Positions 27,101 through 30,100 of a DNA stretch of 64,000 nt are shown in pieces. Positions within the stretch are counted from its first letter, which is position 1. Every line of letters begins with the position of its first letter. A program made the translations under genes and the position numbers. Under the pieces are notes generated by a model. It was given only the letters and a program-made list of their open reading frames with translations. It made no database searches and was not told where the DNA came from. The DNA is from Euglena gracilis (lineage: Eukaryota), in NCBI GenBank assembly GCA_039621445.1, contig CP154954.1, forward strand, positions 21,004,642-21,068,641. Reading direction: 5' to 3'.

Positions 27101-30100
27101 CAGCAATCTGCGCAACACCGTGCTTGCAACGATGTGGATCCCTTGCCCAATCGGAAAATCAAGGTTGGCGTGTATTTTTAAAATTTCCCCGCCCCCATTT
27201 CACCCGCCCATGCGCCGATCTTGCCCCTCACCGCCGAAGTAACTGGGTATCGACGTTACCAGTCACCAGGGTCCGCGACAAACCCCTCTCCGCAACCAGA
27301 AACCTCTCCCATCCCCCCATCTCCTGGTTGGCTCCATGCCTTCTCTCGGCCTGGCGGTGGTGGGCCGGGCAGCGGCGTGTCGGCCGACCCCGACCGGGAC
27401 CTGCCCCGGCGCCCGAAGCCCAAGCCGAAGCCGAAGGGCCGGGGCGTGTTCGAGTACAGCGCCGGGGTCGGGACGCGCACCTACTGTGCCCCCGAGCAGG
27501 AGAAGTCCCGCAACTACAACGAAAAGGTGTCCTTGCCGCCTGTGTGCCGGCCTGTGGCCGCGGAAGAAACCGTGCGGGTTGACGCTGAGGATGTGAGATT
27601 TCCCTGGTCCTGCTTTGGTGCCTGCCGGCCATTCCTGCCAGGTGGACATCTTCAGCGTCGGCATCCTCTTCCTGGAGATGCTTGCGGGCTTCGGCACGGA
27701 GCATGAGCGGTGCTTGACGTTGGCTGCGGTGCGGGAGACGGGTCGTGCGACCCCGAGAGAGAGTCTGGCTGACTGGACACCCCTCATAGCTTCCTCCGAT
27801 CTTCATAAGTTTTTGAAATCTGCAGCATCTCTCAGTGATTAAATTACAGATTTGCCCATTTTTTGGCATTGGGGCAAATGAATATAACGTATAGACATAC
27901 ATACAATCAAAGATGATTGTATTAATATGTTTGTATGTCCACATTCATAGGTTGCATGTGTGTTATTATTTCAAACGAGCGTGTGTGCGCACGCGCAGGT
28001 GTGCGTGTGTGTGGCTACCCTGCACCCCGACCTGTAGTTGTCTCCCACAGCCCGGCGCTCCTCCTGAGTTCTACGCCAAGTGCCCGCGGGAGGCGGAGCT
28101 CGTCAACGTCTGCGTCACCCACTCCCCGGAGCGGCGCTGGAGCGCGCGGCAGCTGTTGGAGAGCGACCGGCTGCCGAAGCCCCCGGCGGAGGACAGCGCC
28201 ATTCGCCAGGTGATGGACACCGTCGCCCAGGGCGGGCTGGTGTGTGGCGGCTGCCCCGAGGTCCGGTGAGGTCAGCGGCCTCACGGGGCCGCTGACCTCG
28301 CGTACCAGCCCGTGCGTACGTGAGGTCGCGTGCGCACCTCGCGTGCGGCGAGGTGCGCAGGTGTGAGCATGCGTGTGCACTCACGCACGCGTGCGCACTC
28401 ACGCACGCGTGCTGACGCACGTGTACACGTACGTGAGCACGTACGTGTACACGCACGTGCTCACGTACGTGTATGTGACCACCAACAGCTCCGGGTGACC
28501 CTTGCAATTGGGACAAGAAATGGTGGGGGACCATGATATGGGGAAAACATTTCGAATCATTTTTTTTTCCCGGACGGTACCTGGTACCGGACTGCCTGCT
28601 GCTGCTCCCGGCAGCGCCGAATCCCCTGTCCTGCCGTCCCCCACCTCTAAACTCAGAACGTATCTGTGATCACGCCACCGCTGCCCCAGCGGATCCCGTC
28701 AGTGGAAAGCAAAGGCAGCAAACCCCCAGCTAACGACCCCCGCCCCACAGCCAGTCACCTCCCCCCCCCCAACTCTGGAACCACCCCACCTCCCCAATTC
28801 TGCGGAGGCGTTTTCTCACCGCACCACTCGGATGCCCGTGGCCCCGTCCCCCATCCAAAGGCCGCCCTGCCCCCACCAGCGACCGCGCCTCCCCCCACTT
28901 CCAGCGGTTGCTGGGGTCTTTGTTCAGTTCCGCTTCCTCCGGGCTGAAGGACTACATGGCTGGCTTCCAGAAGCCCGGCCCTCCCCAGGTGTGCCCCCCT
29001 CCCCGAAACAAACAGGTGTTGCCACTGGCGGGTGGGGTGTCACGGGAGGCAGGTTCGTGGGAGGTCGGTGCTGCGACCGGCTGCGGATGGCCGCCGCCCA
29101 ACCAAAAGAAAAAAAAACAGGTTGGACCACGACCCACCAGGGTCCAACCAAAGCACGATTTTGGATGGCCTGAGGCCCAACCAACGGGCACCATACCTCT
29201 TGACTGACCGCCCGCCATTGGTGGTGTGTCAACCGTGCACAGGTGGCTATGCAAAAAAAAACAGGATTCTTTCTTGAGATGGGCGTGGCCAGGGGTTTTC
29301 TTGAGCCGGAGGGTACCCCATCCCCGGGGGGGGGGGTCCAGCCAGCCAGCAGCTCAAATCCAGCCGGCAGCCCAAATTCGGGCTGGGAGCCCTCCCCCCC
29401 GGGCGGGGGGTCAAGTGAAATAAAGTTGGGTCCAGCCCGGCCGAAGGCCGGCCAACCAATTGGGCTACCCAGCTCACCTATCCCTTCATTTTTTTCCCCT
29501 CGTCGCAGCTTCCACCATCACAGCCCCCCAGCCTTGACCTAGCTCCATCCATCAAAATGTCGAAAATGCAAAAAAAATTAGAAATTTTTGTTTTTCATCG
29601 ACCCAGCCCAGCCCAGCCCCCTCCAGCCCGGACCCCCCCCTCCCCCCCCTATCCCCCGGGGGGGGGGGGGGCAGCCAGCAGCCTTTTTGCCCGCCGGAGG
29701 CTGGACCCCCCCCAGGGGGTCCTTAAGAAAACCCCTGGGCGTGGCCAAGCGCACTCTTCCCAAGCTGCCCACACTTATCTTTGCGAAGGGGAGGGAAAAG
29801 GGAGGTCAGTAGGACGAAGGGAGTGGTCAGTGAGTGGACCACTGGGCCATAAAGGACCCAGTGATACCGTTTTTATTGACATAATTTATTGTTTCTGTTC
29901 ATCAGATGATAGAACACTGTGGCATTTTTGACGGTTTTTGTGCTTACCACCGCCTGATTTCCCAAAATGACACATCGTTTTCCACATTCTTCTTTTTCTT
30001 TGTAAAGAGGGCAAAGTTGTTTGGACGGACCTTTCTGGCCTTCCCCCCTGCTGAGTTATTTGGGCATGCAAAACTTTAGGGCACTGCAAAGTTATTTGAG

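What the first reader, a model, noticed from the sequence alone, without database searches (positions are those of the whole stretch)
29282..29745. Fresh MITE inside a GT-AG intron is itself a perfect non-conventional intron (possible nested splicing)
Seen: 29287-29742 reads ggc-CAGGGGTTTTCTT...AAGAAAACCCCTG-ggcgt|ggc. It has a purine start, CAG at +4, CTG at -8, a pyrimidine|purine end and a 13-bp perfect stem, longer than most real introns here. It lies inside conventional intron 28989-30190. Inference: such MITEs are splice-ready on insertion and may be removed first, as introns within introns. The same logic applies to 32029, 43314 and 45158.
Basis: partly seen in the sequence, partly recalled or inferred. 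Interest (0 to 1): 0.7.

Follow-up and report, generated by a model that had tools for sequence, protein, structure and literature searches.

The report
Transposon with intron-like ends inside intron
A small, high-copy "cut-and-paste" transposon relic sits inside an ordinary intron of a Euglena-type gene, and its ends happen to match the unusual second splicing code of these algae, which fits an old idea about where their odd introns come from but does not show that this copy is spliced on its own.

Summary
Window 29290-29737 is a 448-bp MITE. It has 13/13 terminal inverted repeats (CAGGGGTTTTCTT) and a perfect 8-bp target-site duplication, GGCGTGGC. RNA-seq confirms that it lies inside GT-AG intron 28989-30190 of a + strand gene. 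Three further CAG...CTG elements have 8-bp duplications (32029, 43314, 45158). That makes 4 elements, against a mean of 0.04 in 100 shuffles.

The element meets every cis feature of the experimentally defined Euglena nonconventional-intron code, N3-CAG/CTG-N5|purine plus end pairing (PMC12501133). The spacers add up as 3 + 5 = 8, the duplication length, so excision by that code would restore the empty site exactly. "Splice-ready" is therefore supported by motif only.

Nested or "removed first" splicing is not supported:
- No such RNA joint was listed, although coverage had no power to detect one.
- Published work shows conventional introns leave before nonconventional ones (PMC6221363).

The most likely reading is a hAT-like passenger removed together with its host intron. 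MITE origin of these introns, duplication-like repeats and an 8-nt repeat at a newly gained intron are already in print. This is a concrete example, not a new mechanism.

The parts
29282..29289 (.). Left copy of the 8-bp target-site duplication GGCGTGGC
   Evidence: 8/8 identical to 29738-29745.
29290..29737 (.). MITE body, 448 bp, G/C-homopolymer-rich with an A/T-rich centre. Left inverted repeat at 29290-29302, right inverted repeat at 29725-29737.
   Evidence: 13/13 inverted repeat, 15/16 when extended. DNA-run depth about 3.1x10^5 in bin 29136-29669 against about 30-60 in unique bins, with family variants joining 29346>29672; the two ends pair in the minimum-free-energy RNA fold (-219.2 kcal/mol, z -3.3).
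29738..29745 (.). Right copy of the 8-bp target-site duplication GGCGTGGC
29287..29742 (+). Hypothetical nonconventional-intron register: N3 ggc + MITE + N5 ggcgt, followed by the purine g at 29743
   Evidence: Sequence. Code from PMC12501133. No RNA joint was seen, so this is a motif match only.
28989..30190 (+). Host conventional GT-AG intron, 1202 nt
   Evidence: joint 28985>30188, GT..AG with cut +3. Six X21 reads with 6 starts, and an X1 contig of depth 104.
28875..28988 (+). Upstream exon of the host gene
   Evidence: joints; the seven joined exons (962 nt) have one frame without stops.
30191..30346 (+). Downstream exon of the host gene
27756..28065 (+). RNA-verified nonconventional intron. 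GAG/CTC stands in place of CAG/CTG, with a 3-bp stem.
   Evidence: skips 310, AG..CT..
28225..28874 (+). RNA-verified nonconventional intron: N3-CAG...CTG-N5|A with an 8-bp stem. Single-copy depth.
   Evidence: 9 X21 reads..
30347..30909 (+). RNA-verified nonconventional intron: N3-CAG...CTG-N5|A with a 10/11 stem
   Evidence: 5 X24 reads, plus the X1 contig..
30986..31538 (+). RNA-verified nonconventional intron. CGC/GCG stands in the CAG/CTG position, with an 11-bp stem.
   Evidence: 5 X21 reads and 3 X24 reads..
31760..33717 (+). Second GT-AG intron of the host gene. It holds the MITE at 32029-32453.
   Evidence: joint 31757>33716, GT..AG with cut +2.
32029..32453 (.). Second CAG...CTG MITE of a different family. 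Inverted repeat CAGG(C/T)TTGTGCTTAAGG. Duplication GCCCCCAC/GCTCCCAC matches 7/8. The base after N5 is C, a pyrimidine.
   Evidence: A diverged copy lies at 44740-45038.
43314..43595 (.). CAGGGGTTTT-type MITE, 282 bp, with a perfect 8-bp duplication ATACAAAC
   Evidence: It is 74% identical to 45158-45440.
45158..45440 (.). CAGGGGTTTT-type MITE, 283 bp, with a perfect 8-bp duplication GTTGAAAC
26530..27006 (.). Fifth CAG...CTG element. The 20/20 inverted repeat begins CAGGGGGGGG. The flanking direct repeat GTTTCTC is 7 bp, so it departs from the 8-bp rule.

Best explanation
Window 29290-29737 is a non-autonomous DNA transposon (MITE) of hAT-like type. It belongs to a very high-copy family of a euglenid nuclear genome and inserted into a conventional GT-AG intron of a + strand protein-coding gene, duplicating 8 bp of target.

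At this site it is a passenger. The spliceosome removes the whole 1202-nt host intron, MITE included, so the element needs no splicing of its own and has no function here.

Its resemblance to a nonconventional intron is a family property. The inverted repeats start with CAG and end with CTG and pair with each other. The experimentally defined code cuts 3 nt before CAG and 5 nt after CTG. Since 3 + 5 equals the 8-bp duplication, code-directed excision of such an element would remove the MITE plus one duplication copy and restore the pre-insertion sequence.

Shown here: the element's anatomy, the host intron, the high copy number, and the match to the code. Inferred: the hAT assignment, the 3+5=8 link as cause and not coincidence, and the absence of independent excision.
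For: **Anatomy and statistics**
- 13/13 inverted repeat and 8/8 duplication.
- Four such elements in the window against a mean of 0.04 (maximum 1) in 100 shuffles.
- The duplication is exactly 8 bp at 43314. At 29290 and 45158 the 8-bp core also matches, with chance extension into the inverted-repeat end letters.

**hAT-like features**
The hAT superfamily is defined by 8-bp duplications and 5-27-bp inverted repeats. A Drosophila hAT MITE has the inverted repeat CAG(G/A)GGTAGGC (PMC3517528, passages).

**Copy number**
X20 depth is about 3.1x10^5 over the MITE bin against about 30-60 in unique bins. The tool warns this is not a copy number.

**Host intron**
Spliced at GT-AG in X21 (6 reads) and in the X1 contig. 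The joined exons keep one open frame.

**The code (PMC12501133)**
- The 5' spacer must be 3 nt.
- The 3' spacer is optimal at 5 nt.
- CAG/CTG is essential.
- A purine is preferred at the exon start.
- Pairing behind CAG/CTG is needed.
- Synthetic 50-bp introns built on these rules are spliced.

All of these are met at 29287-29743, and the ends pair in the minimum-free-energy fold.

**Other support**
- Two of the 4 RNA-verified nonconventional introns of the same gene use exactly N3-CAG...CTG-N5|A, and all 4 are followed by a purine.
Against: - No transposase, and no autonomous element with these inverted repeats, was found. Pfam gave no transposase hit in 165 ORFs scanned (30, 135 of the 204 ORFs of at least 125 aa). 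The hAT assignment therefore rests on duplication length and inverted-repeat form only. P and Merlin elements also make 8-bp duplications (recalled).
- This 448-bp element has no second copy in the window. Its family status rests on one DNA run that may be the assembly's own sample.
- The fifth CAG...CTG element (26530-27006) has a 7-bp repeat, not 8.
- The true nonconventional introns of this gene are single-copy and not recognisably members of any MITE family (depth). Their residual 8-nt register match is weak: 16/32 against 9.7 at control offsets, and 1 of 44 offsets reaches 16.
- Independent excision was not excluded, because RNA coverage was too thin.
Confidence: 0.75

Rival explanations
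1. The MITE is itself excised from the pre-mRNA by the nonconventional machinery while the host GT-AG intron is still present, or before it is removed. It would then be a nested intron within an intron.
For: All published cis requirements of the nonconventional code are met (one search compared with PMC12501133). The minimum-free-energy fold brings the ends together. In PMC6221363, 2 reads kept a conventional intron while lacking nonconventional ones, so the order is not absolute.
Against: PMC6221363 reports 9,487 intermediates with at least one conventional intron, all of which still held their nonconventional introns. It suggests nonconventional splicing is post-transcriptional and later. 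No joint at the MITE borders was listed in two raw RNA runs or in the RNA contigs, although power was nil. RNA reads on the MITE come from other copies (29366 A in 15 of 16 X21 reads). Nested removal would also bring no benefit, because the host intron is discarded anyway.
Confidence: 0.08
2. The match between MITE ends and the nonconventional-intron code is coincidental. CAG...CTG termini are common among DNA transposons, and the nonconventional introns arose independently, for example by double-strand-break repair as proposed for the newly gained gapC intron.
For: The four verified nonconventional introns of this gene are single-copy and share no sequence with the MITE families. Two of the four do not use CAG/CTG. 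Other abundant MITE families in the window have poly-C/poly-G termini and other flank repeats. PMC4770533 ascribes 8-nt direct repeats at a new intron to break repair.
Against: The strict 3-nt and optimal 5-nt spacers (PMC12501133) sum to exactly the duplication length seen at 3 perfect elements here. A newly gained nonconventional intron carries 8-nt direct repeats (PMC4770533). The verified introns show excess identity in the 8-nt register.
Confidence: 0.2
3. The flanking 8-bp repeat is not a transposase footprint. It would be microhomology from repair-mediated capture of a foldback sequence, so the element would be a repeat but not a transposon.
For: No transposase partner was identified. 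At 29290 the direct repeat can be read as 12 nt (TG+8+CA), overlapping the inverted-repeat ends.
Against: Three independent insertions have perfect repeats with the same 8-bp core, and a fourth matches 7/8, with unrelated sequences at each site. Depth in the DNA run is extremely high. Terminal inverted repeats are conserved between diverged copies: 43314 and 45158 are 74% identical overall, yet their termini are kept.
Confidence: 0.05

Closest known systems
Nonconventional introns of Euglena (code 5'-N3CDG-/-CH'GN5-6|R; Nomura et al. 2025, PMC12501133)
   Same: CAG at +4 to +6, CTG at -8 to -6, a purine after the 3' end, and an end-to-end stem. Two verified introns of the same gene have the identical geometry.
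   Different: This element does not interrupt an exon and was not seen spliced. It is high-copy with an intact 8-bp duplication, whereas the verified introns here are single-copy with decayed flanks.
hAT-superfamily MITEs, e.g. Mar of Drosophila willistoni (PMC3517528)
   Same: 8-bp target-site duplication, a short inverted repeat beginning CAG(G/A)GG, no coding capacity, many copies, and frequent location in or near genes (one search compared).
   Different: No related transposase was found, so superfamily membership is inferred. The interior is G/C-homopolymer-rich, not AT-rich throughout.
MITE-origin hypothesis for euglenid nonconventional introns (Milanowski et al. 2014, PMC3935182; review PMC11282704)
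   Same: The hypothesis predicts exactly such elements: inverted repeats that form the intron stem, and duplication-like repeats at the junctions.
   Different: Those papers argue from introns and name no transposon family. PMC3935182 states that no transposable elements had then been identified in euglenids. Here the transposon is seen as such, outside coding sequence.
Recently gained gapC intron 4 of Euglena agilis ACOI 323 (PMC4770533)
   Same: A young nonconventional intron flanked by eight-nucleotide direct repeats. This is the same length as the duplications here.
   Different: That one sits in an exon and is spliced, and its authors ascribed the repeats to double-strand-break repair. 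Its sequence was not compared here, because the supplement table was not read.
Introners / MITE-derived spliceosomal introns of Micromonas, dinoflagellates and Fritillaria (review PMC11282704)
   Same: Transposon insertions that are splice-competent on arrival through their inverted repeat and duplication.
   Different: Those are removed by the spliceosome, sometimes with altered specificity. Euglena nonconventional introns lack spliceosomal signals and leave as full-length circles, as summarised in PMC11282704.

Membership tests
MITE (non-autonomous class II transposon) | Terminal inverted repeats | tested here: met
   13/13, and 15/16 when extended.
MITE (non-autonomous class II transposon) | Target-site duplication flanking the inverted repeats | tested here: met
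   GGCGTGGC matches 8/8. Four such elements against a mean of 0.04 in shuffles.
MITE (non-autonomous class II transposon) | Short, with no coding capacity | tested here: met
   At 448 bp it is too short for a transposase. ORFs across it are homopolymer translations. They were not scanned against Pfam.
MITE (non-autonomous class II transposon) | Many copies in the genome | tested here: met
   X20 depth is about 3.1x10^5 against about 30-60 in unique bins, and family variants are seen as joints. Caveats: the tool says depth is not a copy number, there is no second copy in the window, and no genome is held.
hAT superfamily | 8-bp target-site duplication | tested here: met
   8/8 at three elements and 7/8 at a fourth. 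One related-looking element has 7 bp. The criterion is from PMC3517528.
hAT superfamily | Short inverted repeats (5-27 bp) | tested here: met
   13-16 bp. The criterion is from PMC3517528.
hAT superfamily | Autonomous relative encoding a hAT transposase with matching inverted repeats | tested here: not met
   No transposase family in 165 window ORFs. The genome is not available, so absence from the window says little.
Euglena nonconventional intron | 3-nt spacer + CDG at the 5' end; CH'G + 5-6-nt spacer at the 3' end | tested here: met
   ggc-CAG at 29287-29292; CTG-ggcgt at 29735-29742. The code is from PMC12501133.
Euglena nonconventional intron | Purine at the first base after the 3' end | tested here: met
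   g at 29743.
Euglena nonconventional intron | Base pairing behind CAG and before CTG | tested here: met
   Ten further perfect pairs. The ends are paired in the minimum-free-energy and centroid folds.
Euglena nonconventional intron | Actually removed from transcripts at those borders | tested here: inconclusive
   No such joint among the 15 listed, with 428 not shown. RNA depth on the unique flanks was about 0.3-1.4.
Conventional spliceosomal intron (the host, 28989-30190) | GT-AG borders and a spliced junction in RNA | tested here: met
   6 X21 reads and the X1 contig, GT..AG with cut +3.

The most novel reading that the evidence does not exclude
The nonconventional splicing code of Euglena mirrors hAT-type transposon insertion at the RNA level. 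The machinery cuts 3 nt outside one inverted repeat and 5 nt outside the other, and 3 + 5 equals the 8-bp target-site duplication. Every CAG...CTG MITE that lands in an exon, in either orientation, would therefore be born as a precise intron whose removal restores the original message, provided the sixth duplication base is a purine. High-copy families like the ones in this window would be the living source of the roughly 70% nonconventional introns. Copies inside conventional introns would be latent substrates that may occasionally be cut out as circles.
Probability: 0.45. Interest if true: 0.75.

Novelty: new member of a known kind. Interest (0 to 1): 0.45.

Why it matters
The origin of euglenid nonconventional introns and the machinery that removes them are open questions. 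PMC12501133 (2025) still calls the origin unclear. PMC3935182 noted that no transposons had then been identified in euglenids.

This window shows concrete, apparently young transposon families whose inverted-repeat and duplication geometry equals the genetically defined splicing code. That turns the MITE hypothesis into direct tests:
- Survey exonic family members for splicing.
- Look for presence/absence alleles.
- Knock the element with its duplication into the existing EgGSL2 reporter.

For genome annotation, it also warns that code-matching CAG...CTG elements inside conventional introns should not be called introns without RNA support.

Tried and rejected
- **Whole-genome search for family copies.** No genome is held for this window.
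- **The look-up of sequencing runs.** No RNA holder was listed among the indexed runs. Raw RNA runs of the same species label were laid instead.
- **First read-laying request, 27000-46999.** The shorter stretch 27000-43000 was laid instead. The elements at 43314 and 45158 therefore have no RNA or DNA read evidence, and whether they lie in exons, introns or spacers is unknown.
- **Search for a nested-splice joint or circle junction at the MITE.** None was listed, but RNA depth on the unique intron sequence was about 0.3-1.4 and 428 joints were not shown, so this gives no verdict either way. No empty-site allele was listed in X20, with the same caveat.
- **Metagenome scan with the 16-nt inverted-repeat pattern.** It returned 118 loci, each a chance match. 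blastn of the four elements against them found nothing.
- **Pfam on stop-to-stop ORFs.** In 165 ORFs the only hit was a sub-threshold glycine-rich one. No transposase was found and the host gene got no name. My impression that the exons encode an eIF2-alpha-kinase (GCN2)-like protein is recall from reading the translation and is untested.
- **Earlier findings of this scan.** Nothing relevant.
- **Literature.** I found no paper that names a euglenid MITE or hAT family, states the 3+5=8 link, or reports nuclear nested nonconventional-in-conventional introns. The J Mol Biol 2021 circular-RNA paper is not in the library; I know it only through the review PMC11282704.
- **Supplements.** Dataset S7 of PMC12501133 holds intron counts only. 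The SI Appendix PDF of that paper and Table S3 of PMC4770533 were not read and might bear on the direct-repeat length distribution.
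Full report
**1. What is in the sequence**

- Window 29290-29302 reads CAGGGGTTTTCTT, and 29725-29737 is its exact reverse complement. One search finds only these two zero-mismatch sites in the window.
- Directly outside lie two identical copies of GGCGTGGC, at 29282-29289 and 29738-29745.
- The 448-bp interior is rich in G and C homopolymers, has an A/T-rich centre, and has no room for a transposase.
- A purpose-written scan looked for CAG...CTG pairs 60-3000 nt apart with at least 10/12 inverted repeat and at least 7/8 identity in the flanking 8 nt. 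It finds four elements: 29290-29737 (8/8), 32029-32453 (7/8), 43314-43595 (8/8) and 45158-45440 (8/8).
- In 100 first-order shuffles of the window the mean was 0.04 and the maximum 1.
- A fifth element at 26530-27006 has a 20/20 inverted repeat but only a 7-bp flanking repeat.

**2. Family relations**

- 43314 and 45158 are 74% identical along their whole length. A solo end of the same family lies at 37892-37975.
- 32029 has a diverged relative at 44740-45038.
- The element at 29290 shares only the CAGGGGTTTT terminus with the 43314/45158 pair and has no second copy in the window.
- Its repetitive nature shows in DNA run X20. Summed contig depth is about 3.1x10^5 in bin 29136-29669 against about 30-60 in unique bins, and shorter family variants appear as joints 29346>29672 with about 10 replaced letters.
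- The tool warns that this depth is not a copy number, and X20 may be the assembly's own sample.
- No genome is held. A metagenome scan with the inverted-repeat 16-mer gave only chance hits.

**3. Context, from RNA**

I laid two raw RNA runs (X21, X24), one presumed RNA contig set (X1) and X20 on 27000-43000. This gave a + strand gene with seven exons from 27403 to 31759 and seven introns, the last running to 33717.

| Intron (type) | Coordinates |
|---|---|
| GT-AG | 27527-27641 |
| Nonconventional | 27756-28065 |
| Nonconventional | 28225-28874 |
| GT-AG (host) | 28989-30190 |
| Nonconventional | 30347-30909 |
| Nonconventional | 30986-31538 |
| GT-AG | 31760-33717 |

- The joined exons (962 nt) have exactly one frame without stops.
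- The MITE at 32029 also lies in a confirmed GT-AG intron.
- The mix of GT-AG introns with CAG/CTG stem introns marks the DNA as euglenid. That is an inference from intron types, since the runs' organism is coded.
- Pfam did not name the gene.

**4. Comparison with the nonconventional code**

Nomura et al. 2025 (PMC12501133; abstract and all Results read) defined the requirements by knock-ins:
- CAG/CTG (more generally CDG/CH'G).
- A strictly 3-nt spacer before CAG.
- A 5-nt spacer after CTG. Adding 1 nt is tolerated with loss; removing 1 or adding 2-3 is poor.
- A purine at the start of the next exon.
- Pairing behind CAG and before CTG.
- Fully synthetic 50-bp introns built on these rules are spliced.

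The stretch 29287-29743 meets every one of these. It has ggc-CAG, ten further perfect pairs, CTG-ggcgt and then g. The ends pair in the minimum-free-energy and centroid folds of the RNA (-219.2 kcal/mol, z = -3.3).

For the four verified nonconventional introns of the same gene:
- Two have exactly N3-CAG...CTG-N5|A.
- Two keep the geometry with GAG/CTC or CGC/GCG.
- All four are followed by a purine.
- Their stems are 3, 8, 10/11 and 11 bp, all shorter than the MITE's 13.

**5. What explains the match**

- The two spacers sum to 8, which is the duplication length.
- For any CAG...CTG element with an 8-bp duplication, cutting 3 nt before the left inverted repeat and 5 nt after the right one removes the element plus one duplication copy. 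That restores the empty site.
- The match is therefore a family property and holds in both orientations. Only the purine depends on the site: duplication position 6 on one strand, or the complement of position 3 on the other.
- On the + strand it is met at 3 of 4 elements. 32029 has C.
- An 8-bp duplication with a 5-27-bp inverted repeat is the hallmark of hAT elements, and a Drosophila hAT MITE has the inverted repeat CAG(G/A)GGTAGGC (PMC3517528, passages).
- No transposase was found in 165 window ORFs, so 'hAT-like' is an inference.
- The verified introns keep a weak trace of identity in the same 8-nt register. They score 3, 5, 3 and 5 of 8, or 16/32 in total. Control offsets average 9.7, and 1 of 44 offsets reaches 16. 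This is suggestive at best.

**6. What is already in print**

- MITE-like origin of nonconventional introns was proposed in 2013 (PMC3935182).
- It was repeated in 2016, 2018, 2024 and 2025.
- The 2024 review notes duplication-like repeats at the junctions (PMC11282704).
- The 2016 paper reports that a newly gained gapC intron of one E. agilis strain has eight-nucleotide direct repeats, which it ascribed to break repair (PMC4770533).
- Six full-text searches found no paper that names a concrete euglenid MITE family, links 3+5 to an 8-bp duplication, or describes nuclear nonconventional elements nested in conventional introns.
- The library lacks many subscription papers, and I could not read the PNAS SI PDF.

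**7. Nested splicing**

- Nothing here supports it. No joint at the MITE borders is among the 15 joints listed. RNA depth on unique intron sequence was only about 0.3-1.4 and 428 joints were not shown, so the test had no power.
- RNA reads on the MITE carry the family's A at 29366, not this copy's G (15 of 16 in X21, 5 of 6 in X24). They come from other copies.
- Published intermediates argue against 'removed first'. All 9,487 reads that kept a conventional intron also kept their nonconventional introns. Only 2 discordant reads were seen in another amplicon. The authors suggest nonconventional splicing is later and post-transcriptional (PMC6221363, Discussion).
- The simplest mechanism is that the spliceosome discards the host intron with the MITE inside it.

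**8. Verdict**

The element is a real MITE that is code-compatible, but there is no evidence for nested excision, and prior evidence argues against the proposed order.
- It is a new, concrete member of known kinds (MITE; putative source of nonconventional introns).
- Its value is as a handle for testing the transposon origin of Euglena's second intron class.

Noticed in passing
window 36001-36414: Another very high-copy MITE-like family. X20 depth is about 6x10^5. The inverted repeat is roughly CCCCCCCCCCTATGTCCAA(C/T)GACC, and the flanking direct repeat TACTTA is 6 bp. In RNA run X24 its bin is strongly strand-biased (0.75 against 21.6).
   Followed up: partly
window 38853-39138: A repeat family bounded by poly-C and poly-G termini (TACCCCCCCCCCG.GAA.CTGTC inverted repeats), with internal tandem CTGTCAGGGTCCC units. 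X20 depth is about 5x10^5. It is transcribed on both strands in X21 and X24.
   Followed up: partly
window 60198-60525: A 328-bp stretch with a perfect 13/13 CAGGCTTCTTTTC inverted repeat, flanks matching 5/8 in the 8-nt register, and a purine after N5. It is a candidate genuine nonconventional intron or an old MITE. No RNA was laid there.
   Followed up: no
window 43002-43293 and 34027-34114: A long (TGTA)73 microsatellite abuts the MITE at 43314, and a (TATGG)17 array lies further upstream. The first blocked read-laying over 43-47 kb.
   Followed up: no
window 27403-33717 (+): The host gene mixes 3 GT-AG and 4 nonconventional introns within 6.3 kb. Its translated exons look eIF2-alpha-kinase (GCN2)-like to the eye (recall), but Pfam found nothing on the short pieces.
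   Followed up: partly
window 36692-38778 (-): A spliced minus-strand transcript (X1 contig of 1512 nt, depth 52) shows a second expressed gene. Its intron types were not examined.
   Followed up: no
window 29280-29291 / 29736-29747 and 45148-45157: At two of the three perfect insertions, the 8-bp duplication is preceded by TG, the same letters as the inverted-repeat end. At 29290 it is also followed by CA, giving a 12-nt direct repeat. This could reflect a target preference or be chance.
   Followed up: no
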